Below are positions 25,995 to 40,594 of a stretch of DNA of 52,344 bases, in pieces. Both the position numbers and the translations under genes were made by a program. The first letter of the stretch is position 1. Each line of letters opens with the position of its first letter. The stretch is taken from the sequence record MT446401.1. One strand, written 5' to 3'. The notes below the pieces were generated by a model. That model was not told where the DNA came from. It was given only the letters and a program-made list of their open reading frames with translations, and did not search any database. Origin of the DNA: Escherichia virus TH27.

Positions 25995-26019
25995 ACCTCC
26001 CTTGTGGAGGTTTTTTTTC
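25995..26019 (+). terminator. Rho-independent terminator / attenuator
   Basis: acctccc-ttg-tggaggt plus T8. Confidence 0.65.
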
Positions 26020-26064
26020 GCCTGTATAATGAAAATCAAACAAACGCACAAAAGGTTAAACATT

Positions 26065-29000
26065 ATGAACAAATATGATGTAACGGGCCGTAAAGGTGGG
26101 AGCAGCAAGCCACATACCCCACAGGAGATGGAAGACAATCTGATCTCAATCAATAAAATCAAGGTTCTCCTGGCTGTAAGTGATGGCGAGGTTGACGGCA
26201 ATTTCTCCATGCAGGATCTGTATCTCAATGATGTGCCAGTTATCGCACCTTCTGGTGAAGTAAACTACAACGGAGTTAAAGCTGAGTTCCGACCAGGTAC
26301 GCAGACTCAGAGTTACATCCAGGGTTTCGCCGACACCGCCGCCGAGTTTACGGTAAATCGTGAGTTGAAGACCACGACACCGTATGTTATCTCAATTACC
26401 AATAAGCAACTTTCGGCGGTCAGGGTTAAAATTATGATGCCGCGCGGTGTTAAAACTGAGAGCAATGGCGATATGGTTGGCGTTAGCGTTAACTACGCGG
26501 TTGACATGGCGGTGGATGGCGGTTCCTACAGTGAAGTCCTTAACGACACGATTAACGGCAAGACAATGAGCGGATATGATCGCACTCGAAGGATTAACCT
26601 CCCGTCATTCAACAGCCAGGTTCTGTTAAGGGTTCGCAGGATTACAGCAGACTCCACTGATGCCAGGCTGGTTGACGCCATTAACATTCAGTCTTACGCA
26701 GAGGTCGTTGACGCCAAGTTCAGATATCCACTGACTGGTTTACTTTACGTTGAGTTTAACTCTGAGCTATTCCCTCAGATCCCAAGCATCAGCGTGAAAA
26801 AGAAATGGAAGCTGATTAACGTACCGACAAACTATAACCCTGAGATGCGTGAGTATAGCGGCACGTGGGATGGGAGTTTTAAAAAAGCATGGTCAAATAA
26901 TCCGGCGTGGGTGCTTTATGATTTGATCACCAATCATCGCTACGGACTCGACCAACGTGAATTAGGGATCGAGGTCGACAAATGGTCACTTTACGACGCC
27001 GGGCAATACTGCGACCAGAAAGTGCCAGATGGTCATGGTGGAACTGAACCACGCTATCTTTGCGATGTGGTTATTCAGTCTCAGGTTGAGGCGTACACCC
27101 TGGTTCGTGATATTTGCTCAATTTTCCGTGGAATGAGCTTTTGGAATGGTGAGAGTTTATCAATCGTTATCGACAGGCCGCGTGAGCCGTCCTACATCTT
27201 CACAAACGATAACGTAATTGATGGTTCGTTCTCTTACACTTTCGCCAGTGAGAAGAGCATGTACACGTCCTGTAACGTGACGTTTGATGATGAGCAGAAT
27301 ATGTATAGCCAGGACGTCGAAGGTGTATTCGACCTTGAGGCATCATTGAGGTTCGGTCACAACCCAACAAGCATCACTGCGATCGGGTGTACGCGTCGAA
27401 GCGAGGCCAACAGGCGCGGACGGTGGATTCTTAAAACAAACCTGCGTAGCACTACGGTGAACTTTGCCACAGGACTGGAAGGCATGATCCCAATGGTTGG
27501 TGACGTAGTTTCAATCGCCGACAATTTCTGGTCAAGCAACCTCACACTTTCACTTTCTGGTCGTGTGATGGAGGTTTCTGGTTTGCAGGTGTTTACGCCA
27601 TTTAAGGTTGATGCTCGCCCAGGTGATTACATAATCATCAATAAGCCGGACGGGAATCCGGTTCGCAGGACTATTGCCAGCGTGTCTCAGGACGGGAAGA
27701 CAATCCAGCTAAACGTTGGATTTGGGTTTGACGTTAAGCCTAATACAGTTTTCGCAATCGACCGCACTGACGTAGCTCTACAGCAATACGTTGTAACATC
27801 AATCGGTAAAGGAGACGGTGATGAGGAGTTTACATATAGCATCACGGCAGTTGAGTACGACCCGAATAAGTACGACGAGATCGACTACGGCGTAAACATT
27901 GATGACAGGCCAACTAGTATTGTCGATCCTGACAACATCATGCCACCAGATAACATCGACGTTTCTTCATACTCCAGGGTTGTTCAGGGGATGAGCGTTG
28001 AAACCATGGTTGTTGGTTGGGATAAGGTTCAGTACGCGAGCCTTTACGATGTGCAGTGGCGCAAGGATAATGGCAACTGGATGAACGTACCGCGCACAGC
28101 TAACTCGGAAGTTGAGGTTGAAGGGATTTATGCAGGCAATTATCACGTGCGCGTAAGGAGCGTGGCAAGTTCAGGAAATACTTCGCCATGGTCTAATATA
28201 GTTAGCGTTGCGCTGACAGGTAAGATCGGAACGCCATCATCGCCTATTAATATCACGGCGTCTGACGATGAGGTGTTTGGTATTAGGATTAAGTGGGGCT
28301 TCCCTACAGATGCAGGAGATACGGCATACACTGAATTGCAGCAGGTTAAGGATAATGGTGACGGCACATACAATCCAGAAAACGCATCGCTGCTAACGCT
28401 TATTCCGTACCCTCAGTACGAATACTGGCACTCAACCTTACCGGCAGGGATGGTCATCTGGTACAGAGCGAGACTGATAGACAGGATCGGAAACCAGTCT
28501 CCATGGACTGACTTTGTTAGAGGAATGACTTCTGACGACGTTTCTTCGATTATCGGTGATATCAAGGTTGATATTGAAGACTCTGATGGATATAAGTACC
28601 TACTACAGAACGCAATTGATAACAGCACTGATATCCAGAATCAGGCCGAATCAATCATTGAAAACGCGCTCGCGAATGATTCTGACGTGAGGATTATGAC
28701 CAAGGAGAATGGAAAGAGGAAAGCGGAATTTAGGCAGGCGGTTGTTCTTATTGCTGATGAGACACAGGCCCGAGTAGATGCTCTAACTGAGCTTAAGGCG
28801 CAGATTGATGATGAAGTGGTTGCATCAATTACTGAGGTTAAAACAGCGCTAGCAACAGAGACTGAGGCAAGAACCTCAGCTGACACGGCGTTAAACGCGA
28901 GGCTTGGTGAGAACGAGGCGGCGTTAACTCAGAAGTTAGAGTCATATGCAACAGCAGACGCTGTTGGTGCACAGTACGGAGTTAAGCTTGGCCTCAAATA

Positions 29001-29439
29001 CCAGGGGGTTGAGTATGGTGCCGGAATGAGCATGGAGCTTGTTGGCTATGGTGGCAATGTTCGCAGCCAGATGATTTTTGACGCTGGAAGGTTCGCGATC
29101 AGTAACGGGATTAGTAGTGGTTCCGGTCAGTGGTCACTGCCTTTTGTAGTGGAAAATAATCAAGTGTTTATGCAAAGCGCATTCATCCAGGACGGTTCAA
29201 TCACGAATGCGAAGATTGGTAACAGGATTCAATCTAACAATTACGTTCAAGGAAGTCAGGGATGGGCTATTGATAAGTCAGGGAGTGCGGAGTTAAACAA
29301 CGCAACAGTTCGTGGTAGTTTGTACGCCAGTAACGGTAACTTCGCCTTTAACGGAACGAACAATACTGTCGTCATAAACAACAACGGAATAACGGTTAAC
29401 TTGCCAAATGGTGGGAGGGTAGTAGTTGGTACGTGGTAA
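26065..29439 (+). CDS. Tail tip / host specificity protein, lambda J-like (1124 aa)
   Basis: Very large ORF after I; start 26065 chosen (RBS AAAAGG) because track start 26002 overlaps the terminator. Confidence 0.85.
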   Translation: MNKYDVTGRKGGSSKPHTPQEMEDNLISINKIKVLLAVSDGEVDGNFSMQDLYLNDVPVIAPSGEVNYNGVKAEFRPGTQTQSYIQGFADTAAEFTVNRELKTTTPYVISITNKQLSAVRVKIMMPRGVKTESNGDMVGVSVNYAVDMAVDGGSYSEVLNDTINGKTMSGYDRTRRINLPSFNSQVLLRVRRITADSTDARLVDAINIQSYAEVVDAKFRYPLTGLLYVEFNSELFPQIPSISVKKKWKLINVPTNYNPEMREYSGTWDGSFKKAWSNNPAWVLYDLITNHRYGLDQRELGIEVDKWSLYDAGQYCDQKVPDGHGGTEPRYLCDVVIQSQVEAYTLVRDICSIFRGMSFWNGESLSIVIDRPREPSYIFTNDNVIDGSFSYTFASEKSMYTSCNVTFDDEQNMYSQDVEGVFDLEASLRFGHNPTSITAIGCTRRSEANRRGRWILKTNLRSTTVNFATGLEGMIPMVGDVVSIADNFWSSNLTLSLSGRVMEVSGLQVFTPFKVDARPGDYIIINKPDGNPVRRTIASVSQDGKTIQLNVGFGFDVKPNTVFAIDRTDVALQQYVVTSIGKGDGDEEFTYSITAVEYDPNKYDEIDYGVNIDDRPTSIVDPDNIMPPDNIDVSSYSRVVQGMSVETMVVGWDKVQYASLYDVQWRKDNGNWMNVPRTANSEVEVEGIYAGNYHVRVRSVASSGNTSPWSNIVSVALTGKIGTPSSPINITASDDEVFGIRIKWGFPTDAGDTAYTELQQVKDNGDGTYNPENASLLTLIPYPQYEYWHSTLPAGMVIWYRARLIDRIGNQSPWTDFVRGMTSDDVSSIIGDIKVDIEDSDGYKYLLQNAIDNSTDIQNQAESIIENALANDSDVRIMTKENGKRKAEFRQAVVLIADETQARVDALTELKAQIDDEVVASITEVKTALATETEARTSADTALNARLGENEAALTQKLESYATADAVGAQYGVKLGLKYQGVEYGAGMSMELVGYGGNVRSQMIFDAGRFAISNGISSGSGQWSLPFVVENNQVFMQSAFIQDGSITNAKIGNRIQSNNYVQGSQGWAIDKSGSAELNNATVRGSLYASNGNFAFNGTNNTVVINNNGITVNLPNGGRVVVGTW

Positions 29440-29445
29440 ATGATT

Positions 29446-29470
29446 AAGCCCCTTTCGGGGCTTTTTCTTT
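29446..29470. terminator. Terminator hairpin between convergent genes (T-run on + strand only)
   Basis: aagcccc-tttc-ggggctt with T-run on + strand; - strand side has only an interrupted run. Confidence 0.75.
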
Positions 29471-30432
29471 TAGTAGAAGTTAGGAATGAATGGAAGTGCC
29501 ATTGATATGTTTGTGTCGAATGGGAATTGAGCGCCAGTCTGAGTTGAATAGTTGCCTATTACAGATCCTGGAACGGCCCTAACGGAGCCGCCAGACATGC
29601 AAACCCCCTTATACCGAAGGTTGTTATACCCACCTGTAACTCTAGTCGTAGCGCCGCATCTAAGAAGTGGGAAGAAGCCACCATTTATTGACTGGTATCC
29701 ATTGTTAATCTGGATGAATCCACCCAGAACGAAAGGTCTGCGAACACTAGAGAAAACAATCTGGCCAGATCCGTTTGACATTGTAAGTCCTGGGCCTGCT
29801 GGCGGCGGCTCATTTCTGAATATAACCAGCTGGACGTAAGTGCTAGCCCCAACGTCATCAATCCCGCCGTAGTTTGAATCCCTGCACCATATCGTACTTC
29901 CATCACTCTCAAGCGACACGTTTGGGTTATCCCACTTACCGAAAGGTATTCCGCTGACAGGAAGTGACGCAGCACCATTTACCTGAATCCCACCAACCCA
30001 TGCAGCAGACATTAGCCTTGAATTGCTTGATATTGCCAGGAAGTCAGTTGAGTTTTCGACAAGCACCCCTGGGCTTGATGAGGACGCTGCAGGTAGAATC
30101 TCAAAGCACTGACCACCAAACTGCAATATCCGACCATTCGCCCCGTTAAAGTTGCTTAAGGTAATCCTTCCGACTCCATCATTTACCTTTGAGAAGCCAT
30201 TCATATAATAAACTTCAGGAACAACATCATATGCATCAACATATACAGCCTGCGTCGGCAAGCAGAATGCAGTTGAGCCAGGAGACATGGATAACCCAAA
30301 ATCCCATGAACTAACCGGAGACGAAATCCCGCTTGTATTTATCGATCCAGTCACAGCAGGCGCTCTCAATCCTGCTGTTATTTCCATCGCTGGCCTTCCA
30401 TCGTTAAGGTCGATCAGTATACCATGCCCCAT
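29470..30432 (-). CDS. G/S/N-rich protein (320 aa), possible receptor-binding or fiber-associated protein
   Basis: Start moved to ATG at 30432 (RBS AAGGAG 7 nt upstream, just after lipoprotein stop); function inferred only from composition and position. Confidence 0.6.
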   Translation of the reverse strand: MGHGILIDLNDGRPAMEITAGLRAPAVTGSINTSGISSPVSSWDFGLSMSPGSTAFCLPTQAVYVDAYDVVPEVYYMNGFSKVNDGVGRITLSNFNGANGRILQFGGQCFEILPAASSSSPGVLVENSTDFLAISSNSRLMSAAWVGGIQVNGAASLPVSGIPFGKWDNPNVSLESDGSTIWCRDSNYGGIDDVGASTYVQLVIFRNEPPPAGPGLTMSNGSGQIVFSSVRRPFVLGGFIQINNGYQSINGGFFPLLRCGATTRVTGGYNNLRYKGVCMSGGSVRAVPGSVIGNYSTQTGAQFPFDTNISMALPFIPNFY

Positions 30433-30433
30433 C

Positions 30434-30676
30434 TTACCACTCCTTAGAACCGTGATCTGCAACCGAACCGCCGTAGCCGCCACCTGCTTTTGATTCAATA
30501 CCAGCATAGCGAATATCAACCTCACCAGCTGGAACCACCACGCCACCTTTCCACTTCGCAACGCAAACATCACCAGCCTGGGTAGCGCACCAGCCGTCAG
30601 GTCGGTGGCCGGAAGAACAACCTACAGTCATGATTACTGCTGCTGCGATGATTGCTGATTTGATGAAGTTAGTCAT
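30434..30676 (-). CDS. Lipoprotein (80 aa), possible superinfection-exclusion lipoprotein
   Basis: Signal peptide with lipobox VGCSS; RBS AAGGA; sits beside receptor-binding genes. Confidence 0.7.
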
Positions 30677-30716: not shown

Positions 30717-30756
30717 ACTATACACCAACCATTAATTTAGTTTTAGCAATTCGTGC
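30717..30756 (-). promoter_or_regulatory. Palindromic box plus TATAGT (- strand) with CATCGAAACGAA leader
   Basis: Box 30742..30756, hexamer complement 30717..30722, leader 30700..30711; overlaps end of Rha-like gene. Confidence 0.5.
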
Positions 30757-31361
30757 GTTTTACCCGTCAGTGCGATAATTGTATCTTTCGATACCTCCAG
30801 CTTCATTTGTAATCCTTCGCATTGAGCCTGATATGAATACACGTTTTCCTGCGACTCATAATATCTATTGTTTTCGATTCGAATATTAGCCACCAAATCG
30901 TCGATTTGAGAGCCAGAACCTTCAGACTCTAGAATCTTATCAAGTACCTTGCTTTGCGCGTAGTACAGGTCTTCTATGCGGTGCTGCGCTGAAATGGCTC
31001 TATACTTCTGTTGGTGCTCATCAATAACCTCGTCAATTGAAACCATTTTGGAGTTGTGAGATTTAAGAACATTAACTTCATGCTCAAGCGACTTTATTTT
31101 CTGGATCATCTTCATTCTGATTTTTGCGCTGTATTTTGCAACAAGGCATAGCGTGTGATCCTTATCCAGAATGGCTACGTTATGCATCTTTCCTTTATGA
31201 TATTCTTGCTCCTCAAATTGAGGAACAAGGTTTTCTCCATATAAATCAACATACATAGCATTGACATCCCTTATAATGTTGTCGTGACGAACTCCTGTAA
31301 TCTTGGCAATCTCAAGGCTGGTCATGGTCATTTCTTCGTTTGTGATGGTTAATTCGTTCAT
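30732..31361 (-). CDS. Rha-family phage regulatory protein (209 aa)
   Basis: N-terminal [19 protein letters not shown] segment characteristic of Rha-type regulators; RBS GGAG. Confidence 0.7.
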
Positions 31362-31903
31362 TTTTCAATCTCCATTAGTGATCGCGTGATTGCGATGCGT
31401 GTATTTTGCACACTTTAATCTGATTGTCTTTAGCTATTCGTGCTTTTTGGTGTCAAATATGCAAATGCAACGATATACGCGTAACCGATGTAACTCGATG
31501 TATACAATCTAATCCTCGGAAAATTGTATACGCCCTGTTACGCCGATTTACGCTATAGTTACATTAAAATATCTATATATATCAACCTTTTACTCTTATT
31601 ATTATTATTATATATATTACTGTGTATATCGTGTAACTACTTCTATAGAGTGTTCCGATTATAAATTTCTAATATGGTTATTTATACAGTATTTAATCAC
31701 AAATACACCAATGCACCCTCAGCGAAAAATGATATACACGATATACACACTGTTTACATTAAGCTATAGCTGGGCTGGATAGCCATTTTATGTAACTAAC
31801 GCCATTGCATACACGCAATTACAAATATCTACACGTAACCACTTGACTAACGCAACCAAGCGTGTATAGTTAGCCACATCAACAACGAACGAGGATTAAA
31901 GAG
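31362..31903. other. 540-bp AT-rich intergenic region with TATAC(A/G)C-type repeats between divergent operons
   Basis: No ORF; repeated atacac/atacgc units, tandem gatatacac x2 at 31730..31749, (TTA)5 at 31596..31610. Confidence 0.7.
31843..31870 (+). promoter_or_regulatory. sigma70-type promoter (TTGACT-16-TATAGT)
   Basis: TTGACT 31843..31848, 16-nt spacer, TATAGT 31865..31870. Confidence 0.55.
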
Positions 31904-32956
31904 ATGACAGAGCCACTGTTTCAATACTTCACCTCAGAAGAAATGAGCAACGACTTTTACCACAGCAAGGATGAGTGGACCGCCGATTATGTATCAGGTT
32001 CATCGCTGAGCAAGATTCACAGCACTTGCCCTGCGGCGTGGAAGTTTGAAATGAACTCAACGACTAAGGCGCTTGTCTTCGGTACGCAGTCGCATACCAA
32101 TTTCGAGAGTAAGGCACTGTTTGAACGCCAGTATCGTCGCGCACCAAAAGATAGCGAGATTGCAAACGTAATCACTAGCCAGGCGGCCTTGGCTACGAAA
32201 TTAAAATCATTTGGCCTGACTGGTACAAGCGGCAAGCAATATCCAGAGCTAATCAAAATGATGGTTGATTGCGGCGAAGACCTCAACGTCATGTGGCTGA
32301 TTGATATGATCGCACAATGTCAGGCGTGGGCGGATGGCGTGGAACTGGTTAAGGCGGAAGACTACGACGCTTGCGTAAGTATGCGCCAGGTTCTTGAAAT
32401 GATTCCTGAGCATAACGCTTGCATGAACAGCGAGACTGCATTCCGTGAGTATTCGTTGTTCGGCGTAATTTGTGGCGTTAAAGTCAAGGTTCGACTTGAC
32501 CATGTTGACATCATTAATGATCCAGAAGCCATCCGACGCATGGGTTACGATCCTGAGATTCACCCTGAAATTGTCGTCATCACTGATTACAAAACAACAA
32601 TGAGCGCCAACCCGACCGAGTTCCCGCGCCTGGCGTTCAACCTTGGGTATTACCTCAAGATGGCATTGCAGCGTGACCTGTTCGTCAAGTGCTTTGAGGA
32701 AACGCGACCTGTGGTTGTGCGATTACTGGCCCAGGAGAAGAAGGAGCCTTACTTGCCTATGGCGTACCGGATGAGTGGGGATCAGCTTAAGATTGGGCGA
32801 GCGCAGTACATGAGCGTGATTCACACCTTTTCAATGTGCGAAGCCAATGATGTGTGGCCTTCATACAATAATGGCGAGCCGGAAGTCGAACTGGAGACGC
32901 CGCCATGGGTAATGAAGCAATTTGAGTCAATACTATTAATTTCAATGAGAAATTAA
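31904..32956 (+). CDS. PD-(D/E)xK family exonuclease (350 aa), RecB/Cas4-like
   Basis: D..(13)..ITDYKT motif typical of PD-(D/E)xK nucleases; adjacent to Erf recombinase. Confidence 0.7.
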   Translation: MTEPLFQYFTSEEMSNDFYHSKDEWTADYVSGSSLSKIHSTCPAAWKFEMNSTTKALVFGTQSHTNFESKALFERQYRRAPKDSEIANVITSQAALATKLKSFGLTGTSGKQYPELIKMMVDCGEDLNVMWLIDMIAQCQAWADGVELVKAEDYDACVSMRQVLEMIPEHNACMNSETAFREYSLFGVICGVKVKVRLDHVDIINDPEAIRRMGYDPEIHPEIVVITDYKTTMSANPTEFPRLAFNLGYYLKMALQRDLFVKCFEETRPVVVRLLAQEKKEPYLPMAYRMSGDQLKIGRAQYMSVIHTFSMCEANDVWPSYNNGEPEVELETPPWVMKQFESILLISMRN

Positions 32957-33030: not shown

Positions 33031-33393
33031 ATGATCTCATTTAACTATGTGAAGCTTCTAGCTCATAGGGTTATATGGGAAATGCACTACGGACCTATAC
33101 CAGAAGGTTACGAGATAGACCACATTAACGGAATAAGAAGTGATAACAGGATTGAAAACCTAAGACTTGTAACTAGAGCCATCAACAATAAAAATAAAAA
33201 GATGCAGTCAAATAACACATCAGGATTCACAGGTGTTGTTTTTGTTAAGCAAAGATGTAAATGGAACGCAAGGGTAAAGGTAAATGGAGTGCAGAAAAGC
33301 CTTGGTAGTTTCAATACAGCAATTGAAGCGAAAGAGGCAAGGGAAAGATACATCTCAATGAATGGTGATTTTACTTTAAGGCATGGCAGGTAG
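33031..33393 (+). CDS. HNH-AP2 homing endonuclease (120 aa from ATG; in-frame N-terminal extension back to 32926 has no ATG/GTG/TTG)
   Basis: HRVIWEMHYGPIPEGYEIDHINGIRSDNRIENLR motif; upstream in-frame KYIDGNLYWIKSG matches N-termini of the HNH genes at 44399 and 49326. Confidence 0.7.
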   Translation: MISFNYVKLLAHRVIWEMHYGPIPEGYEIDHINGIRSDNRIENLRLVTRAINNKNKKMQSNNTSGFTGVVFVKQRCKWNARVKVNGVQKSLGSFNTAIEAKEARERYISMNGDFTLRHGR

Positions 33394-33432
33394 CACTTTT
33401 TGCTAAACAAGAATGCGGTGATTTGCTATAAT
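33391..33432 (+). promoter_or_regulatory. Palindromic box TAGCACTTTTTGCTAAA plus TG-c-TATAAT in hairpin
   Basis: Box 33391..33407; hexamer 33427..33432 inside cggtgat/atcaccg. Confidence 0.55.
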
Positions 33433-33469
33433 CACCGTAAATCAAACGAAGTAAACAAAGGTATATATA

Positions 33470-34126
33470 ATGCGTACATCAGAGAAGTTTTCGAATGTTT
33501 CGGCCGCTCTAATTGCAGCTAAAAAGCAGTTTGCCATCGCAAAAAAATCAGGATTCAATACTCACCTGAAAACACATTACTCAAACCTGACGGACGTTCT
33601 GGAGGCCGTAGAGCCAGCGCTAAAAGAGCATGACCTTATGGTTATCCAGTCAAACCTGGACACGTCAACCGAGAAGGTTATGCACATTGAAACACTCATC
33701 CTTCATAGTTCCGGCGAGTGGCTTGCGTTCCAGTACAACATGCCGATCGAGAAGATTAGCGCCCAGGCTTACGGTTCAACAACCTCATACGGTCGCCGTT
33801 ACGCATTGTGCGCAGCGCTTGGAATCACTCAGAGCGATGACGATGCAGAAATCGCGAAGCGCACGGCAGCAGACTACAAAAAACTGATCACAAACTGTGA
33901 AAAACTGGAAGACCTCCAGGTCATCTATAAGAGCGCGAAAGGTTCACTTGGTGCGGCGGAATGGAAGATTGCAGAAGACCACTTGCAGAAGCGCAAGGCT
34001 GAATTGAGTATCGGTAGCGCTCGCGGTTTCCAGCCAGCCAAAAAGGCCGAGGCGCAAAAGGTTGAAGACAAGGTTGCAAATGCACCGTCCGAACCTGTAC
34101 AATCTGAATCCATCGAGCAATTCTAA
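33470..34126 (+). CDS. erf: Erf-family single-strand annealing recombinase (218 aa)
   Basis: SGEW...TSYGRRYALCAALGI..DDDA pattern typical of ERF family. Confidence 0.8.
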   Translation: MRTSEKFSNVSAALIAAKKQFAIAKKSGFNTHLKTHYSNLTDVLEAVEPALKEHDLMVIQSNLDTSTEKVMHIETLILHSSGEWLAFQYNMPIEKISAQAYGSTTSYGRRYALCAALGITQSDDDAEIAKRTAADYKKLITNCEKLEDLQVIYKSAKGSLGAAEWKIAEDHLQKRKAELSIGSARGFQPAKKAEAQKVEDKVANAPSEPVQSESIEQF

Positions 34127-34166
34127 TTAACGGGGCTTCGGCCCCATCCAATAAGGAAAATAAAAA

Positions 34167-34589
34167 ATGCCACACGTAATCACTGGTCAGATCCGTAAAG
34201 CACCTTTTACCAAAGAAGGCAGTAACAACAACGGGCGCTGGAAAATGTACGCCGTTGAACTGTCAGAACGCATGAAGATTCGCAATCAGCAGGGCGAGGA
34301 TGAGACGGTTTACAGCAACTACCGCGCCACGTTCTTCGCAAAAGAAAACGTTATGCAGTGGTATGATGAAGCATTCCAGGAAGGTAAGGTTGTATCAATT
34401 TCTGCCGACACTCTTCACTTGGCGTCACGCCAGGGTAATGATGGCACTGTGTATGTAACAGCTGAAATGATCAGGCCTCAGTTGCAATTCAGCCAGCGTG
34501 AGACGTCGCAACAGCGACAGCAGCCACAACAACAACAAAGACAGCAACCGCAGCAACAAAGCCAGTTCGATGACGATATTCCTTTCTGA
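34167..34589 (+). CDS. ssb: Single-stranded DNA-binding protein (140 aa)
   Basis: Gln-rich linker and C-terminal DDDIPF, identical to the bacterial SSB acidic tip. Confidence 0.85.
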   Translation: MPHVITGQIRKAPFTKEGSNNNGRWKMYAVELSERMKIRNQQGEDETVYSNYRATFFAKENVMQWYDEAFQEGKVVSISADTLHLASRQGNDGTVYVTAEMIRPQLQFSQRETSQQRQQPQQQQRQQPQQQSQFDDDIPF

Positions 34590-34599
34590 TGTAAAAGAT

Positions 34600-34624
34600 A
34601 AAGCCCCTTTCGGGGCTTTTTTTG
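34600..34624. terminator. Terminator hairpin between convergent genes (T-run on + strand only)
   Basis: aaagcccc-tttc-ggggcttt followed by T-run on + strand; - strand side has only an interrupted run. Confidence 0.8.
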
Positions 34625-36835
34625 TTACCAGTCTGAAAAGACTAAAAGTCCTCTCATTGAGTTCCTGTAAAAATCAACAGTTCCTGAACCAAGATTAAAC
34701 TGAATATAAAAAAGGTTATCCTTAGCATTAGCTGAAAGAGATCTTGTTGCTCCAAATTTATAAGGCGAACCAGATTCAATTGGTGTATTTGTCAATAAGT
34801 TACCATCATAACCAGAACTCGTGTATCCAGTATATAAGTTACCAGACAGTGAAGCACCTCCATTTGCGTTATTCATCTGAACCCAGGCACTAAAACCTGT
34901 CCTACATTTTATCGTCGTGGCAAAAATACTACCATCACGCTTAAAACATATACCAGACATATCAATACCCGCTTGAGATGTTGAATGATCTCCATCAGCA
35001 GCGCCACTAACAACCCTTGTCGGCCATGCATTATTTGCAATAAGACCATCAGATGTAAACCTGTCAACTGGCAAAGCTTTGTCTAAAATATCACCCAAAG
35101 GCCAATGCTTCTGATTTGCATTACCTCCAAAAAGGTATGCCTCAGTAACAAGTGGCTTGACGAATTTTTTATTTGCAAGCGACTTAATCAAATCCCTAAA
35201 CTCTTGTGTATTTCTCACATTTGTAGTTATCGATGTGTCGCCTGCACCATCCCATACAAAGGCACCAAACTCACCATTCCCAACCTGACCGAATATCTTG
35301 CTTGCGATTACAGTTTGCTGAGTTGTTCCAAATAAAACAGAGTTATCCCCAAAAGATGATACTACAGGTATAACCCTACTGCAGCCAGTCATTTTCATTA
35401 CGCCGCCATAATCAAGCCTCATCCCGATAAGATCTTGCTCTACAGCGTCACTAACACTTAAACCAGGTCTGTTTAATGAGTATGAATTACACAAAACAAT
35501 ATCGTAATCAGTGCTATAAATCTGCTTAAATGGACCGGTTCCAGGCGGTAGCTGATCAACCATACTAAGACTCTTGTCAGTGAGAGATCTAAGCTGTGAT
35601 ATCTTACTATTCTGATCTGCAACACTAATACCCCTGGCTCCCGGTTCGTCATATACAGAGTAACCTATAACAGCAGGATGATCTTTAGTTGCAGCCACGA
35701 ATGCGGCTAAATCATTTTTAGCAGCATCGCTTTCAGTTCCTAGATTAACACCAAGACCAGCAGTAAGAGCGTTATCAAGTAGCTTCTGAACCGTGCCATC
35801 AGAATCGATATTGCCATTGTTGGAAAAGTAACAGTAATGGTTAATGCAGTTAATGCCAAGTGACTTAATGTAAAGTAATTCTGATAAGTCATACGCAGAT
35901 TCAAGGTAAATCATCTTAATTTTATCTACATTAATATCCCCAGAATTGAAAGGTACTGGAACCGACCCTAACCCATTTAAACCGTATCTTATGGTGGATA
36001 TCCTTCCCGGACCTAAGATTTTCTGACCTTTGCTATTTATAATTCCACTAACAAGGTAGGTGCCAGATAAGAATACCTGATTTCCAGTATCTAAAGCACT
36101 CTGCAAGGATACCGTATCGTCTGACACTCCATCACCGATGGCTCCAAATGACTCAGGGTAAACAATTGACTTTGTTATCTTGCTGTCAACTTCAGTCTTT
36201 GAGTAGACGTCAAGGTTATTCCTTGCAAGTGGCTTGTCTGTTAAGTCGGACAGTGATAAGTCCTTTCTTAATAAGTTTTCAGTATCAAGTGATGCTGCAT
36301 AATCTGCCGCCTCCTGCGCTGAAGCTGCTGCCGAATCCTTGTCAGCGGATGCGCTAATTGCACTTGCTGCGGCGGAATTCTTATCCGCAGAAACTTGAGC
36401 AGCATCATTGGCAACTTGAGCGCCAATAGATACAACATCGCCATGCTGCGTATTTACCTGGGTAACTTTTGATTCAAAATCATTAACATCAAAGTTATTA
36501 AATGCATCAACTGCATCAGCAACCTCAGTTTCACTTGACTGATAGTAACGAAGAGTCTCAGCGACGTCCTGAGCCAGACCTTGAACTGTAATCCCGTCAT
36601 GAGCCAGGATGAAATACTGAGTGCCTGCCGGAGCTATAAATCCCTTATCGTTAAATGCGCGGATGCTTGTGTCACTCAAGATCTCAGCGATTGTCACGAT
36701 GCTAATCGGTGATGTATTGAAAATCATCGTTGCACCAACGCGAATGAGCGTTAGTGGTTGTCGCCATGTTGTTCCAACACCAGTAACTGTACCATCTGCC
36801 GATAAAGAGGCAGTTCCTGCATCATAAATAGCCAT
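34625..36835 (-). CDS. Tail fiber / tailspike protein (736 aa)
   Basis: N-terminal Ala/Ser-rich repeats (SADKNSAAASAISASADKDSAAASA); large C-terminal domain; AT-rich. Confidence 0.75.
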   Translation of the reverse strand: MAIYDAGTASLSADGTVTGVGTTWRQPLTLIRVGATMIFNTSPISIVTIAEILSDTSIRAFNDKGFIAPAGTQYFILAHDGITVQGLAQDVAETLRYYQSSETEVADAVDAFNNFDVNDFESKVTQVNTQHGDVVSIGAQVANDAAQVSADKNSAAASAISASADKDSAAASAQEAADYAASLDTENLLRKDLSLSDLTDKPLARNNLDVYSKTEVDSKITKSIVYPESFGAIGDGVSDDTVSLQSALDTGNQVFLSGTYLVSGIINSKGQKILGPGRISTIRYGLNGLGSVPVPFNSGDINVDKIKMIYLESAYDLSELLYIKSLGINCINHYCYFSNNGNIDSDGTVQKLLDNALTAGLGVNLGTESDAAKNDLAAFVAATKDHPAVIGYSVYDEPGARGISVADQNSKISQLRSLTDKSLSMVDQLPPGTGPFKQIYSTDYDIVLCNSYSLNRPGLSVSDAVEQDLIGMRLDYGGVMKMTGCSRVIPVVSSFGDNSVLFGTTQQTVIASKIFGQVGNGEFGAFVWDGAGDTSITTNVRNTQEFRDLIKSLANKKFVKPLVTEAYLFGGNANQKHWPLGDILDKALPVDRFTSDGLIANNAWPTRVVSGAADGDHSTSQAGIDMSGICFKRDGSIFATTIKCRTGFSAWVQMNNANGGASLSGNLYTGYTSSGYDGNLLTNTPIESGSPYKFGATRSLSANAKDNLFYIQFNLGSGTVDFYRNSMRGLLVFSDW

Positions 36836-36860
36836 AATTGTAAATCCCTAATTTAGTTGA

Positions 36861-36889
36861 TAGCACGATTTGCTAAATGCAGTATACCA
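36861..36889 (-). promoter_or_regulatory. Palindromic box with adjacent TG-g-TATACT (- strand), upstream of tail fiber gene
   Basis: Box 36861..36877; -10-like complement at 36881..36889; here the box lies between -10 and gene. Confidence 0.4.
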
Positions 36890-36900
36890 TCTTTCTGGCA

Positions 36901-36923
36901 TAAAAAAACCCGCCGAAGCGGGT
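36901..36923 (-). terminator. Rho-independent terminator (- strand) after primase gene
   Basis: acccgc-ttcg-gcgggt with T7 on - strand. Confidence 0.7.
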
Positions 36924-36928
36924 AATTG

Positions 36929-37873
36929 TTATGAATACTTATCTATCAGATCCTGAGGCGTATATAGCTTTCTTTCAAGGCCCATTCTGAAGTTCCCTCC
37001 GTTCGGCACAACCACTTTTAAATCTCGCTCGTCAGCCATGTAAAGCGCTCGCAAATCATCTGCCAGACACGCTACTCGTAACTCCCGATCGCCACGATAC
37101 CGATAAGCAACAATCTCAAGATTCTCAGGGGAGAAAGTCACCCACACTTCCTGATTGGTTGCCATCTTCACGCGGTAGCCATCAATAAGATCGCTTGTCA
37201 TATATATGGCCGCATCGGCCTCGCCACTCCCAAGCTTAACAACTGAGCCGCGAGAATAATCGCGAGCAAGGAAAGTGTATTCGCCATTATCATAAGCAAA
37301 CATGACGTTACACATATCCTCATCAATTCCGTCAGGGTGGACCATGTAGCACGGCAGTGCGTGTATTAGCTCCTCAGTGCCATTCTGGCGCATTTTTACG
37401 CCAACGTCATATGAATCTTCGGTTAAGCACTCATACACGCTTAAATCGGTGTTCTCGCGCTTTTCTGTGCGCTCCATTACTGCTACGCACGACTCATGAT
37501 CCGCCATCTTGCCAAGTCCTTTTTCCGGTACGCGCGACGCCCTGCGGTAAGCTTTAGCTTTGTAATCCTGCGGAACTTTGCCAAGGAATCGACCAAGGAT
37601 GTTAATCACTTCACTGTAAGGCTCACCAGTCAGCTTCATCATCCAGCCAACGCCCTTGTCGTTCCCACAACCGTTACATATAGCGCCACCATCACCTGGG
37701 GAGTCGAGTTCGTCAGTCCAACGGAATCGGTCCTTGCCGCCACAGTAAGGGCATGGCTGGTGCTTTTTATTGAACACGCCGGACTGCAATCCACAAATGG
37801 ATTGTAACGCCTCACGCCATAATCCTTTCATATACGGCAGTACTTCTTCTTTCTGGTAATTAGGTTCGTTCAC
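36929..37873 (-). CDS. DNA primase-like protein (314 aa) with N-terminal zinc ribbon
   Basis: CPYCGG...(19)...CNGCG zinc-binding motif; position in replication module beside helicase. Confidence 0.6.
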   Translation of the reverse strand: MNEPNYQKEEVLPYMKGLWREALQSICGLQSGVFNKKHQPCPYCGGKDRFRWTDELDSPGDGGAICNGCGNDKGVGWMMKLTGEPYSEVINILGRFLGKVPQDYKAKAYRRASRVPEKGLGKMADHESCVAVMERTEKRENTDLSVYECLTEDSYDVGVKMRQNGTEELIHALPCYMVHPDGIDEDMCNVMFAYDNGEYTFLARDYSRGSVVKLGSGEADAAIYMTSDLIDGYRVKMATNQEVWVTFSPENLEIVAYRYRGDRELRVACLADDLRALYMADERDLKVVVPNGGNFRMGLERKLYTPQDLIDKYS

Positions 37874-37925
37874 TGCTTTAACTCCAATAAAAAAGGTTGC
37901 ACCAATTATGGCACAACCTTGATTG

Positions 37926-38399
37926 TCATTCTTTAGCTTTTCGTGCTGCTTCGTTTGCTGCTTTAATTTTTCGCCACGATCGACACTCTGGCTTTGTGGC
38001 TAGTTCAGCCTCAGTGACCACGCGCAGCATGTGACGCTTTTTGCACCGCAGAGTAAGTGGCTTACCGTTCCCGTCGAATTGCAGATCCGGTCGGCAGAAT
38101 GTAGCGCGGAACCCTTCGCCAGTTCGCTTATATCGGTTGTGCGCCAGTTGAGCGCCGCGCGCCGACATCATTCCACGCTTAAACCATTCCTCAACTGCCT
38201 GACGAGTAACCTTTAATTGTTTTGCCATGTTCGCCTTGCTGCCGTAGAACTCAAATACAATATCAAGTCGCGCTCTTAATCCGGCCTTTACTTCATCCTT
38301 TAGAACATAGTAACCTGACGGTCGCTTACGCTGCTTCTTATCTTCTGTGCGGATAGTTCCGTTGTTACCGTTAAGAGTACGCTTATCAGTTGCATTCAT
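37926..38399 (-). CDS. HTH DNA-binding protein (157 aa), candidate transcription regulator
   Basis: Helix-turn-helix-like segment ANMAKQLKVTRQAVEEWFKRG; basic; divergent from helicase promoter. Confidence 0.65.
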   Translation of the reverse strand: MNATDKRTLNGNNGTIRTEDKKQRKRPSGYYVLKDEVKAGLRARLDIVFEFYGSKANMAKQLKVTRQAVEEWFKRGMMSARGAQLAHNRYKRTGEGFRATFCRPDLQFDGNGKPLTLRCKKRHMLRVVTEAELATKPECRSWRKIKAANEAARKAKE

Positions 38400-38412
38400 T
38401 TTATCACCTCAA

Positions 38413-38454
38413 TAGCACTTTTTGTTAAACATTGGTTTCGATGGTTGCTATTAT
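38413..38454 (+). promoter_or_regulatory. Palindromic box plus TG-c-TATTAT in divergent promoter region
   Basis: Box 38413..38429; hexamer 38449..38454. Confidence 0.5.
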
Positions 38455-38491
38455 AACGTCAATCGAACGAACATGAAAGGCATTTAATACT

Positions 38492-40594
38492 ATGGCTATG
38501 CGCATTAAATCCATTAAAAAACAGATAGAAGAACTTGGCCCGCAGAAGATCAAAGAGATTCAGGATAAATTCACGTTCGGTGACATGGTTCCTTATGAAT
38601 ATCAATGCGTGATGTATGATGAGATCGGAAAGCGCATTGCTCGTTATAAGCACCCATTCATCGTCAAGGCGTCGGTGTCGGCAGGTAAAACAATCGGCTT
38701 TGCCATGATCGCATCTCGCGTAAAAGAGATGGGCCTTTCGATGATGATACTGGCGCGCCAGGGCGACATTGTTGCTCAGGATAGTGAAGAAATCTCAAAC
38801 TTCGGCGTTCCTAACTCAGTTTATTGCGCTGGCCTGAACACGAAATCAGCTTACTTTCCCATCGTTGTAGGCTCGGAGGGTTCGGTTGCAAACGGTCTGT
38901 TTAAGGCGCTTGGTGATTTTACACCTATGGTGCTGGGAATTGATGAATGTCACCAGGTGGATTGGGAAGACCTTGCCGCCGCCATCGACAACGAAGAAAC
39001 GATCGAGATGATGCTCACTGAAAAAGATGAACGTGTGTTCGTTGACTACCCGAAAAACAGCGAAGGTTATGTCAATGGATACCTTGATGGTGTAGAGGTT
39101 GGCGTCCAAGTGATGGATAAGCAATTGCTGATAAGCAGGAAGACTGGCGAACCTGTTCTTGGCACCAAGCGAAGCCAGTACACGATAATCATCACTGAAT
39201 TGATGCGCCGATGCAAAGAGAAGAACGGGAAGGAATTGCGCATCTTCGGCATGACTGGTTCTGAGTTCCGAGGTACGGCCCCGATTGTTGTCGATAATCC
39301 TAAGTTGCCTGGATTCTGGCGTGAGCAGGTGACTAATATCGACACCAGCTACCTGATTGAGTTCGGCTCTGTTGTTCCAACCATCTTCGGAAGTGTCGGT
39401 GACGCTGGATATGATCTGGATGAGTTTAAGGCGTCCAGCCAGGATGGAACGGCAGACTTCGGTCAGAAAGAAATGAAGGCGATGGAGAAGAAAATCCATG
39501 ATAACGCCAGCATGACCAAGCGAATAATGGAGATGGTTGTCGAAGAAGCGAAGAAGCGAAACGGCGTACTGATTACGTGTTCAGGCCAGCGCCACTGCAA
39601 AGAGGCAGCGAGCTACCTTCCACCTGACGCAACCTATGAGATAATCACGGAGAAGACGAACACCAAAAAGCGACAAGCGATACTGGAGGCGGCGAACCGT
39701 GGCGAGATAAAATACATATTCCAGGTTGTGGCGCTAACCACTGGCGTTAACGTTCCGTTTTGGGATTTCTCTGTAATACTTCGCAAAATAGGATCGCTTA
39801 CACTGCTAATACAGTTACTTGGTCGTGGTATGCGATTGCTTAAGCCGTGGCAAAAAGCGATGGGAATGGTGAAAGAAGATCACCTGGTGTGGGATTTCGC
39901 TGGCACGATGGATGAGCTTGGTCAGCTTTACTTTGATCCGATTCTTGAAGAGGCTCAGTACCAGCGTCGCTTTGATGGCAAGAAAGAGCCGAAAAAATGC
40001 GAACTGTGCGGAACAGAGAACAGCTTTTACGCTCGCCGCTGCATTCATAAGGACGAGAGCGGCAATCGTTGTGAGTATTTCTGGAAGTCTCGCGTATGCG
40101 AAGACCAGGTTGATGATCGCACTGGCGAGGTGCTCGTTAAAGGATGTGGCGCTGAAAATGACGTAGTGGCTAGAATATGCCGTTGCTGCGACGTAAGCCT
40201 GAAAGATCCCAATGACAATCTGACTGGTAAGGCTTACACCAAAAACGACTGGTGCACAGTTAACAGTTTTGAAGTCACTCTGACACGTAATCAGACTGGC
40301 ATTCTTTATCGGTACGACCTGACAGACTCGGTGGGAGTTAACTTCATCGCTTATGAAAAGTTCTTCCCGCAGTCAACGGCACAGGTATGCCACACGATAT
40401 GGAAACAAAAAGGGGTATTACCTCACGTGCATGACAGTAAGATCGCAAAATTAATGGCGGCTTACAGAAGTGCCAAAATGATTTTAAACAACGCTCACCA
40501 CATAGCACATCCGGTGCGGGTAACTCACCGCAAGAATGCAAAAGGTGAGGATATTATCTCACGTAAGGATTTTGGATTGGACGGTAACTTATGA
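38492..40594 (+). CDS. SF2-type DNA helicase (700 aa) with C-terminal Cys-rich zinc-finger region
   Basis: Walker A SAGKT, DEAH-like GIDECHQ motif; C-terminal CxxC clusters. Confidence 0.8.
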   Translation: MAMRIKSIKKQIEELGPQKIKEIQDKFTFGDMVPYEYQCVMYDEIGKRIARYKHPFIVKASVSAGKTIGFAMIASRVKEMGLSMMILARQGDIVAQDSEEISNFGVPNSVYCAGLNTKSAYFPIVVGSEGSVANGLFKALGDFTPMVLGIDECHQVDWEDLAAAIDNEETIEMMLTEKDERVFVDYPKNSEGYVNGYLDGVEVGVQVMDKQLLISRKTGEPVLGTKRSQYTIIITELMRRCKEKNGKELRIFGMTGSEFRGTAPIVVDNPKLPGFWREQVTNIDTSYLIEFGSVVPTIFGSVGDAGYDLDEFKASSQDGTADFGQKEMKAMEKKIHDNASMTKRIMEMVVEEAKKRNGVLITCSGQRHCKEAASYLPPDATYEIITEKTNTKKRQAILEAANRGEIKYIFQVVALTTGVNVPFWDFSVILRKIGSLTLLIQLLGRGMRLLKPWQKAMGMVKEDHLVWDFAGTMDELGQLYFDPILEEAQYQRRFDGKKEPKKCELCGTENSFYARRCIHKDESGNRCEYFWKSRVCEDQVDDRTGEVLVKGCGAENDVVARICRCCDVSLKDPNDNLTGKAYTKNDWCTVNSFEVTLTRNQTGILYRYDLTDSVGVNFIAYEKFFPQSTAQVCHTIWKQKGVLPHVHDSKIAKLMAAYRSAKMILNNAHHIAHPVRVTHRKNAKGEDIISRKDFGLDGNL

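What the first reader, a model, noticed from the sequence alone, without database searches (positions are those of the whole stretch)
34625..36835. AT-rich tail fiber / tailspike gene embedded in the replication block on the opposite strand
A 736-aa protein with Ala/Ser-rich N-terminal repeats and a large C-terminal domain is encoded on the - strand between SSB and primase, about 5 kb from the tail operon. It is more AT-rich than its neighbours and is flanked by hairpin terminators on both sides, so it looks like an exchangeable host-range cassette, possibly carrying a polysaccharide-degrading domain.
Basis: partly seen in the sequence, partly recalled or inferred. Interest (0 to 1): 0.5.

Follow-up and report, generated by a model that had tools for sequence, protein, structure and literature searches.

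The report
T1-like phage side fibre, TIM-barrel head
This gene is the ordinary, swappable side tail fibre of a T1-like E. coli phage, sitting where that phage family always keeps it, but its tip is predicted to be a barrel-shaped sugar-cutting enzyme rather than the beta-helix spike usually expected.

Summary
A 736-aa ORF lies at 34625-36835 (-) between an Erf/SSB pair and the primase. It is the most AT-rich 2.2 kb of the window (41.4% vs 46.6% GC) and has terminator hairpins on both sides.

The window is a Nouzillyvirus-type Drexlerviridae phage. The gene is that family's lateral tail fibre, and its place inside the replication/recombination block is a published, family-wide feature (Maffei 2021), not an anomaly.

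Residues 1-~215 form a conserved anchor plus an Ala/Ser-rich stalk. They match PHROG tail-fibre families and the N-terminus of the RAD2 tailspike DpK2.

Residues ~215-736 are the exchanged cassette. Similarity to five relatives stops at the stop codon/terminator and resumes at codons 110-215. Relatives carry other heads in the same slot.

The same module occurs behind at least five different adaptor domains and in Acinetobacter capsule-depolymerase tailspikes. Verdict: a new member of a known kind, of modest interest. Substrate and catalytic mechanism remain untested.

The parts
34625..36835 (-). Lateral tail fibre / tailspike gene, 736 aa
   Evidence: ORF. PHROG tail-fibre hits. Relatives annotate the syntenic gene as (lateral) tail fibre.
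36536..36835 (-). N-terminal anchor domain (aa 1-100). It is conserved across Drexlerviridae and has genome-typical GC (47%).
   Evidence: It is homologous to residues 1-~100 of DpK2 (7LZJ) and the 7VYV depolymerases.
36170..36535 (-). Stalk (aa 101-222), Ala/Ser/Asp-rich. It is inferred to form a trimeric helical bundle by homology to the DpK2 N-terminal triple-helix bundle. The recombination breakpoints with relatives fall here (codons 110-215).
36308..36391 (-). Two copies of a 14-residue Ala/Ser-rich repeat (aa 149-176)
34625..36190 (-). Exchanged cassette (codons ~215-736 plus the stop codon). It has no nucleotide similarity to the five closest Nouzillyvirus relatives and is 40% GC.
35960..36169 (-). 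Cap subdomain (aa 223-292) carrying the FGAIGDGVSDDT motif. It resembles the first turn of pectate-lyase-type beta-helices.
   Evidence: Pfam PF12708 hit below cut-off. GH55 N-terminal motif hits. Model.
35120..35923 (-). (beta/alpha)8 barrel (aa ~305-572), clan-GH-A-like
35642..35650 (-). Invariant Asp396-Glu397-Pro398 at the end of barrel strand 4. Glu397 is the predicted general acid/base.
   Evidence: Invariant in 60/60 homologues and in the distant Acinetobacter and PE3-1 relatives. Coordinates verified.
34628..35038 (-). C-terminal beta-sandwich (aa ~600-736). Codons 551-736, which contain it, are 96.6% identical at nucleotide level to a distant metagenomic T1-like phage whose barrel core (codons 401-550) is only 61.6% identical.
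34600..34619 (.). Bidirectional terminator hairpin shared by the convergent SSB and fibre genes. It marks the 3' recombination boundary.
36908..36923 (-). Terminator hairpin downstream of the primase. It is conserved in relatives with compensatory stem changes.
36881..36889 (-). Extended -10 promoter element TGgTATACT. The pattern TGnTAnAnT is invariant in six phages.
   Evidence: This is a consensus match plus conservation; function is not shown.
36845..36849 (-). Shine-Dalgarno-like AGGGA, 10 nt upstream of the ATG
   Evidence: read from the sequence.

Best explanation
The gene encodes the lateral tail fibre (functionally a tailspike) of a Nouzillyvirus-type T1-like siphovirus.

Architecture. 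The conserved first ~100 residues dock the protein to the tail. An Ala/Ser-rich helical stalk (aa ~100-220) probably trimerises it. The distal 514 residues form an enzymatic head made of a small cap, a clan-GH-A-like (beta/alpha)8 barrel and a C-terminal beta-sandwich.

Function (inferred). The head binds and most likely hydrolyses a host surface polysaccharide (O-antigen or capsule). This gives reversible primary adsorption and clears a path. The central tip receptor-binding protein (DUF6453 protein at 29470-30573, next to gpJ) can then reach its outer-membrane protein receptor.

Catalysis (inferred). Glu397, in the invariant Asp396-Glu397-Pro398 motif at the end of strand 4, is the probable general acid/base.

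Expression. The gene is its own transcription unit: primase terminator, conserved extended -10 promoter, gene, bidirectional terminator.

Host-range change. The segment from about codon 215 to the stop codon is swapped between phages by recombination. The two conserved flanks are the anchor/stalk coding region and the terminator/SSB side.

Shown here: gene, position, composition, hairpins, breakpoints, fold prediction, residue conservation, distribution of the module.
Inferred: virion attachment, trimer formation, enzymatic activity, substrate class, role in adsorption.
For: Identity and position:
- PHROG tail-fibre families match aa 1-176, E 3e-62.
- The N-terminus matches DpK2 (7LZJ) and 7VYV depolymerases, E ~1e-33. 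DpK2 is a trimeric tailspike matched to appendages seen on RAD2 virions.
- The syntenic gene is annotated as (lateral) tail fibre in relatives.
- The family-wide locus is described in PMC8594841.
- The phage backbone is 91-95% identical to Nouzillyvirus phages.

Cassette exchange:
- Breakpoints lie at 34622-34630 and at codons 110-215.
- Relatives carry other heads: a Peptidase_S74-chaperone fibre, and TSP1-N plus beta-helix.
- The GC drop coincides with the variable part.
- The same cassette occupies the same slot in a distant metagenomic T1-like phage.
- The module is also found behind PF09008, PF18668, PF03906, PF08400 and PF27114 adaptors.

Fold:
- AF2 pLDDT 93.8, pTM 0.92.
- BFVD gives TM 0.87 to the Aci07 putative capsule depolymerase and 0.72 to the PE3-1 tail protein.

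Likely active enzyme:
- Conserved residues sit at the C-terminal ends of most barrel strands, and DEP is invariant down to 21% identity.
- Distant homologues Aci07, Bestia, APK26 and AB3P2 are reported depolymerases with a TIM-barrel head (PMC11823257; PMC11126041).

Transcription unit.
Against: - There is no experimental evidence here for virion presence, trimer formation or activity.
- No conserved acidic residue occupies the end of strand 7, where clan GH-A enzymes carry their nucleophile. The canonical retaining mechanism is therefore not supported, and the head could in principle be binding-only.
- No Pfam, NCBIfam or PDB sequence match covers the barrel. The glycosidase assignment rests on predicted fold plus conservation.
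- I could not inspect model coordinates, so the placement of residues in the active site is inferred from the secondary-structure string.
- The substrate is unknown. The characterised relatives are only 24-30% identical.
Confidence: 0.8

Rival explanations
1. The head is a catalytically inactive, lectin-like TIM barrel. The fibre only binds a surface glycan, without cutting it, as many non-enzymatic side fibres do.
For: No conserved acid sits at strand 7, the canonical clan GH-A nucleophile position. No sequence-level membership in any curated GH family was found.
Against: Asp-Glu-Pro at strand 4 is invariant in 60/60 sequences and in relatives at 21-30% identity. Further conserved residues lie at other strand ends, a pattern expected of an active site. 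Distant homologues are reported depolymerases.
Confidence: 0.13
2. This is a classical right-handed beta-helix depolymerase tailspike (pectate-lyase-3 type).
For: A weak, below-threshold Pfam PF12708 hit covers aa 229-278. GH55 N-terminal motif hits cover the first ~57 residues of the head.
Confidence: 0.02
3. It is not a virion component but a soluble or accessory enzyme acquired as an AT-rich moron within the replication block.
For: It has low GC, its own promoter and terminators, and a location away from the tail operon.
Against: The N-terminal 170-215 residues are the conserved Drexlerviridae fibre anchor and are homologous to a solved virion tailspike. The location is the family's normal fibre locus. 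In homologues the module nearly always sits at the C-terminus behind known tail-attachment adaptors.
Confidence: 0.03

Closest known systems
Lateral tail fibre locus of Drexlerviridae (T1-like phages), as described for the BASEL collection (Maffei et al. 2021, PMC8594841)
   Same: The position between the recombination genes and the primase/helicase genes is the same. Only the 5' end of the gene is conserved and the rest is hypervariable. The proposed role is recognition of O-antigen-type glycans as primary receptor.
   Different: Nothing differs in architecture. This allele's head is absent from the isolated phages in the searched collection; the best match is 42% aa identity in a Kayfunavirus.
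DpK2 tailspike of Klebsiella siphophage RAD2 (PDB 7LZJ) and the 7VYV/7VZ3 depolymerases
   Same: The N-terminal ~170 residues (anchor plus start of the helical bundle) are homologous, E ~1e-33. The overall logic is the same: anchor, stalk, enzymatic head, C-terminal domain.
   Different: DpK2's catalytic domain is a beta-helix. Here it is a (beta/alpha)8 barrel.
TIM-barrel ('transglycosidase domain') tailspike depolymerases of Acinetobacter phages Aci07, Bestia, APK26 and AB3P2 (PMC11823257); T7-like E. coli O153 phage PE3-1 gp18
   Same: The heads are detectably homologous (24-30% identity, E 4e-12 to 9e-49). The three-part fold is the same (TM 0.87 to Aci07, 0.72 to PE3-1). The Asp-Glu-Pro motif is invariant.
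   Different: The N-terminal adaptors and virion types differ (podo- and myoviruses vs a T1-like siphovirus). Identity is low, so substrate specificity is not transferable.
Clan GH-A glycoside hydrolases (e.g. GH164 beta-mannosidase 6T5O, GH42 1KWK, GH5 mannanases, GH2 beta-glucuronidase)
   Different: The motif is Asp-Glu-Pro instead of Asn-Glu-Pro. There is no conserved Glu at strand 7. Identity is 7-15%, and no family-level sequence match was found.

Membership tests
Drexlerviridae lateral tail fibre | The gene lies between the recombination genes (exonuclease/Erf/SSB) and the primase/helicase genes | tested here: met
   for the window. Searches show the same synteny in relatives.
Drexlerviridae lateral tail fibre | The N-terminal anchor region is conserved with other family members and the remainder is hypervariable | tested here: met
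   PHROG tail-fibre hits are confined to aa 1-~180. Nucleotide similarity to relatives ends at codons 110-215.
Drexlerviridae lateral tail fibre | The protein is present in the virion as a side fibre | not testable with these tools
   This is supported only by homology to DpK2, which was matched to RAD2 tail appendages.
Beta-helix tailspike depolymerase (pectate lyase 3 / PF12708 type) | The central domain is a right-handed parallel beta-helix | tested here: not met
Clan GH-A glycoside hydrolases | (beta/alpha)8 barrel fold | tested here: met
   (predicted structure, not experimental).
Clan GH-A glycoside hydrolases | General acid/base Glu at the C-terminal end of strand 4 (Asn-Glu-Pro motif) | tested here: met
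   An invariant Asp396-Glu397-Pro398 directly follows strand 4. This is the variant form Asp-Glu-Pro.
Clan GH-A glycoside hydrolases | Nucleophile Glu at the C-terminal end of strand 7 | tested here: not met
   Strand 7 (VIPVVSSF) and its end carry no conserved acidic residue in 60 homologues. The caveat is that this is mapped from the predicted secondary structure, and coordinates were not inspected.
Clan GH-A glycoside hydrolases | Sequence membership in a curated GH family | tested here: not met
   No Pfam, NCBIfam or PDB sequence hit covers the barrel. With a mixed profile there was only a marginal GH2 match, E 0.02-0.1.
TIM-barrel tailspike depolymerases (Aci07 / Bestia / APK26 / AB3P2 / PE3-1 type) | Homologous head with cap, (beta/alpha)8 barrel and beta-sandwich at the C-terminus of a tail fibre/spike | tested here: met
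   tblastn E 4e-12 to 9e-49. Foldseek TM 0.87 and 0.72. Shared invariant residues.
TIM-barrel tailspike depolymerases (Aci07 / Bestia / APK26 / AB3P2 / PE3-1 type) | Polysaccharide depolymerase activity | not testable with these tools
   Activity is reported for the Acinetobacter phages in PMC11823257 and PMC11126041. It is untested for this protein.

The most novel reading that the evidence does not exclude
The head defines an uncurated glycoside hydrolase family found, in all contexts examined, at the C-terminus of phage or prophage tail-fibre/spike-type proteins. It numbers about 110 clusters at 50% identity. The family has a clan-GH-A-like barrel but lacks the strand-7 nucleophile and carries an invariant adjacent Asp-Glu pair at strand 4.

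This arrangement is reminiscent of enzymes that use the substrate's own N-acetyl group as nucleophile (GH20, GH123, GH84). If so, the family would cleave at N-acetylhexosamine residues of O-antigens or capsules by a mechanism not yet described for tailspikes of this fold.

In addition, the C-terminal beta-sandwich would be a separately exchangeable specificity sub-module.
Probability: 0.25. Interest if true: 0.5.

Novelty: new member of a known kind. Interest (0 to 1): 0.3.

Why it matters
The genomic arrangement is textbook for T1-like phages, so it teaches nothing new about genome organisation.

The practical value lies in the head. It is a rare, uncurated TIM-barrel module that is shuffled among siphoviruses, P22-like and T7-like podoviruses and prophage fibres. 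It has clear flanking recombination boundaries and a self-contained promoter/terminator unit.

That makes it a convenient natural example for receptor-binding-protein swapping in phage engineering. It is also a candidate new glycosidase for a still unknown E. coli surface polysaccharide. Annotation pipelines that look only for beta-helices would miss it as a depolymerase.

Tried and rejected
2. Sequence-level assignment of the barrel to a GH family. Pfam, NCBIfam and two PDB profile searches found nothing beyond the N-terminal cap motif and a marginal GH2 hit.
3. The bond cleaved by the characterised relative APK26 gp48. The paper (PMID 34537298) is not held, and the Aristophanes paper gives only the deacetylase result.
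4. Origin of the cassette in E. coli prophages. Only 2 of 5426 complete genomes show weak DNA similarity (64.8% over 52% of the query), so no recent donor was identified.
5. Source names for the protein. The exact sequence and its two closest clusters carry no name.
6. A four-term literature search written with 'TIM barrel' (space) returned nothing, for spelling reasons. The hyphenated form worked.
7. DepoCatalog (129 Klebsiella depolymerases) does not mention barrel folds.
8. PHROG and PDB matches already settle its identity.
9. I considered the hairpins as cassette boundaries. The upstream one lies in conserved sequence and belongs to the primase, so only the downstream one coincides with a recombination boundary.
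Full report
**1. Observation**

Its neighbours are as follows.
- An ERF-family single-strand annealing protein at 33470-34126 (Pfam ERF, E 1.6e-22).
- A 140-aa protein at 34167-34589 whose C-terminus reads ...QFDDDIPF. This is the acidic tip typical of bacterial and phage SSBs (my reading of the sequence). One relative annotates the homologue as SSB (H20).
- On the other side, a primase with a primase-helicase zinc ribbon at 36929-37873.
- A Cro/YdaS-like 157-aa protein and a 700-aa helicase follow.

The gpJ-like tail tip gene ends at 29439, 5.2 kb from the fibre gene.

The gene is 41.4% GC against 46.6% for the window. Only 0.4% of 2211-bp windows are lower, and the global minimum lies on the gene. 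The drop is graded: codons 1-100 are 47% GC and codons 225-736 are 40%.

Terminator-like hairpins lie at 34600-34619 (readable on both strands, with T-runs on both sides) and at 36908-36923 on the - strand.

The Ala/Ser-rich stretch is real. It has 46% Ala+Ser over aa 130-190 and two copies of a 14-residue unit. It lies in the middle of the N-terminal third.

**2. What the phage is and whether the position is unusual**

The head-morphogenesis block of the window is 91-95% identical to Nouzillyvirus phages of the Drexlerviridae: TH21, TH30, GaoY1-9D and PH1062, with ESCO41 at 86%.

In BUCT-XGG-1, ETEP102, GaoY1-9D and XT34 a large - strand gene occupies the identical slot between the SSB-like gene and the primase. 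In BUCT-XGG-1 and ETEP102 it is annotated as tail fibre or lateral tail fibre; in GaoY1-9D and XT34 it is annotated only as a hypothetical protein. TH21 shares the flanking similarity but is unannotated. A more distant metagenomic T1-like contig also has the fibre gene in the same slot.

Maffei et al. 2021 (PMC8594841) describe this for the whole family.

**3. Anatomy of the protein**

Residues 1-176 match several PHROG tail-fibre families; the best is E 3.4e-62. Residues 1-170 match the N-termini of solved 'depolymerase' chains 7VYV, 7VZ3 and 7LZJ at E ~1e-33.

7LZJ is DpK2 of the Klebsiella siphophage RAD2. It is a trimer whose N-terminal domain contains an extended triple-helix bundle, and its dimensions match the tail appendages seen on virions. 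By homology, aa 1-~100 are the tail anchor and aa ~100-220 the trimeric stalk. This is an inference.

**4. The head is not a beta-helix**

Pfam gives only a sub-threshold PF12708 hit at aa 229-278, and NCBIfam gives nothing.

I collected 95 homologue clusters of aa 223-736, aligned 60 of them (A1) and predicted the structure. The result was mean pLDDT 93.8 and pTM 0.92. All numbering from here on is full-length (fragment numbering plus 222).

The model has three parts:
- a small alpha/beta cap (aa ~223-292);
- eight alternating strand/helix units (aa ~305-572);
- an all-beta domain (aa ~600-736).

Foldseek agrees. GH2, GH29, GH51, GH5 and GH99 hits have high probability, whereas beta-helix tailspikes appear only with TM 0.15-0.23.

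A profile of the head alone hits PDB sequences only through its first ~57 residues. These resemble the 'GAxGDGxxDDT' start of GH55 beta-helices. The cap thus looks like a retained first turn of a beta-helix enzyme fused to a barrel.

**5. Is it an enzyme?**

Conserved residues cluster at the C-terminal ends of the barrel strands, which is where TIM-barrel active sites lie:

| Strand end | Residues (full-length numbering) |
|---|---|
| 1 | Tyr315/Asp316 |
| 2 | His333/Tyr334 |
| 3 | Glu368 |
| 4 | Asp396/Glu397/Pro398 |
| 5 | Asp427 |
| 6 | Tyr452 |
| 8 | Trp528/Asp529 |

Asp396-Glu397-Pro398 is invariant in 60/60 sequences. It remains invariant when the 21-30%-identical heads of Acinetobacter phages Aci07, Bestia and APK26 and of E. 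coli O153 phage PE3-1 are added (coordinates verified).

This corresponds to the Asn-Glu-Pro acid/base motif of clan GH-A. The Tyr after strand 6 and the Trp after strand 8 also fit that clan (established knowledge of GH5-type enzymes).

By contrast, strand 7 (VIPVVSSF) and its end have no conserved acidic residue, so the canonical nucleophile is missing. Three explanations are possible: an unconventional nucleophile or base (Asp427 and Asp529 are the best-conserved candidates), neighbouring-group participation assisted by Asp396, or a non-catalytic head. I could not inspect the coordinates, so this remains open.

Independent support for activity comes from the literature. The TIM-barrel heads of Aci07, Bestia, AB3P2 and APK26 were noted in PMC11823257, which states that all four phages show depolymerase activity. 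APK26 gp48 is listed as having an established mechanism of cleavage of the K26 capsule (PMC11126041). I could not retrieve which bond it cuts.

In BFVD the whole head superimposes on the Aci07 protein (TM 0.87, E 1e-45) and on PE3-1 gp18 (TM 0.72).

**6. Cassette exchange**

Local BLASTN of 33400-38500 against five Nouzillyvirus relatives shows 84-91% identity in the flanks. Similarity ends at 34622-34630, that is, at the stop codon and terminator. It resumes inside the gene at these codons:

| Relative | Similarity resumes at codon |
|---|---|
| BUCT-XGG-1 | 110 |
| XT34 | 152 |
| TH21 | 184 |
| GaoY1-9D | 213 |
| ETEP102 | 215 |

The exchanged unit is thus ~34625-36190. This matches the modelled head plus part of the stalk, and it coincides with the low-GC part.

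The slot holds other heads in relatives: a fibre with a Peptidase_S74 intramolecular chaperone in BUCT-XGG-1, and a TSP1-N plus beta-helix spike in XT34.

Conversely, this head occurs behind other adaptors: the P22 head-binding domain (PF09008), the TSP1/gp66 N-domain (PF18668), the T7 tail-fibre N-domain (PF03906), PF08400 and PF27114.

An exhaustive search of 1.84 billion representatives finds 112 clusters at E <= 1e-10. In nearly all full-length hits the match runs to the C-terminus. It is a small but widely shuffled family. No isolated phage in the searched collection has a head more than 42% identical.

The cassette is itself mosaic. Against the metagenomic T1-like contig L011, whose backbone is 66-83% identical, nucleotide identity by codon range is as follows:

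| Codons | Nucleotide identity |
|---|---|
| 1-100 | 75% |
| 201-400 | 84% |
| 401-550 | 61.6% |
| 551-736 | 96.6% |

This indicates recombination within the head, near the junction between barrel and beta-sandwich.

**7. Transcription unit**

The upstream hairpin belongs to the primase and lies in conserved sequence. Across six phages its stem is maintained by compensatory changes (CCCGC/GCGGG, CCTCC/GGAGG, CCCTC/GAGGG). It is followed by an invariant TGnTAnAnT, which is an extended -10 consensus; in the window this is TGgTATACT at 36881-36889. An AGGGA lies 10 nt before the ATG.

The downstream hairpin is shared with the convergent SSB gene.

The hairpins are therefore standing features of the locus. 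They make the fibre gene an autonomous unit, and only the downstream one coincides with a recombination boundary. Promoter function is inferred from consensus and conservation only.

**8. Verdict**

Three points need correcting:
- the location is normal for the family;
- the hairpins are not insertion scars;
- the catalytic fold is a (beta/alpha)8 barrel, not a beta-helix.

This is a new member (allele) of a known kind. The modest residual interest lies in the rare, uncurated TIM-barrel head with an unusual catalytic signature and in the sub-modular exchange of its C-terminal domain.

Noticed in passing
window 29470-30573 (-) and 30434-30676 (-): Directly downstream of the gpJ-like gene (26002-29439) lies a DUF6453 protein (E 7e-136). 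An overlapping 80-aa ORF has a lipoprotein-like signal (…VIMTVGCSS). This matches the 'bona fide RBP plus superinfection-exclusion lipoprotein' locus described for small siphoviruses. The homologous small gene in L011 carries Pfam Phage_lipoprotein.
   Followed up: partly
window 34628-35185 (codons 551-736) vs L011 6001-8208: There is intragenic mosaicism. The last 186 codons (end of the barrel plus the beta-sandwich) are 96.6% identical at nucleotide level to a metagenomic T1-like phage. That phage's backbone is only 66-83% identical, and its barrel core is only 61.6% identical. This suggests the C-terminal domain is exchanged separately.
   Followed up: partly
window 33031-33393 (+): A 120-aa ORF with 37.5% GC sits between the exonuclease and Erf genes. 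From its sequence it reads like an HNH/AP2-type homing endonuclease. BUCT-XGG-1 has an HNH nuclease at the same spot, whereas GaoY1-9D and XT34 have none there, so it appears to be a mobile insertion.
   Followed up: no
window 30732-31361 (-) and 31250-31999: A 209-aa ORF with 39% GC is followed by the most AT-rich intergenic stretch of this region (34-35% GC). It lies between the RBP locus and the exonuclease gene. The closest relatives have a much shorter, unannotated gap there, so it is probably another accessory insertion.
   Followed up: no
window 36881-36923 (-), alignment A4: The primase terminator stem is preserved by compensatory base changes across six phages. It is immediately followed by an invariant extended -10 motif, a compact terminator-promoter junction that uncouples fibre expression from primase expression.
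   Followed up: yes
protein cluster of P0009 (E. coli / Shigella sonnei genomes): The P22-type (head-binding domain) version of this TIM-barrel head is present in many E. coli and Shigella assemblies, mostly as truncated fragments of 200-530 aa. This suggests decaying prophage copies.
   Followed up: no
window 35960-36169 (-), aa 223-292: The head starts with the 'FGAIGDGVSDDT' motif typical of the first turn of pectate-lyase/GH55 beta-helices, yet continues as a TIM barrel. This looks like a chimeric junction between two unrelated enzyme folds, conserved throughout the family.
   Followed up: partly
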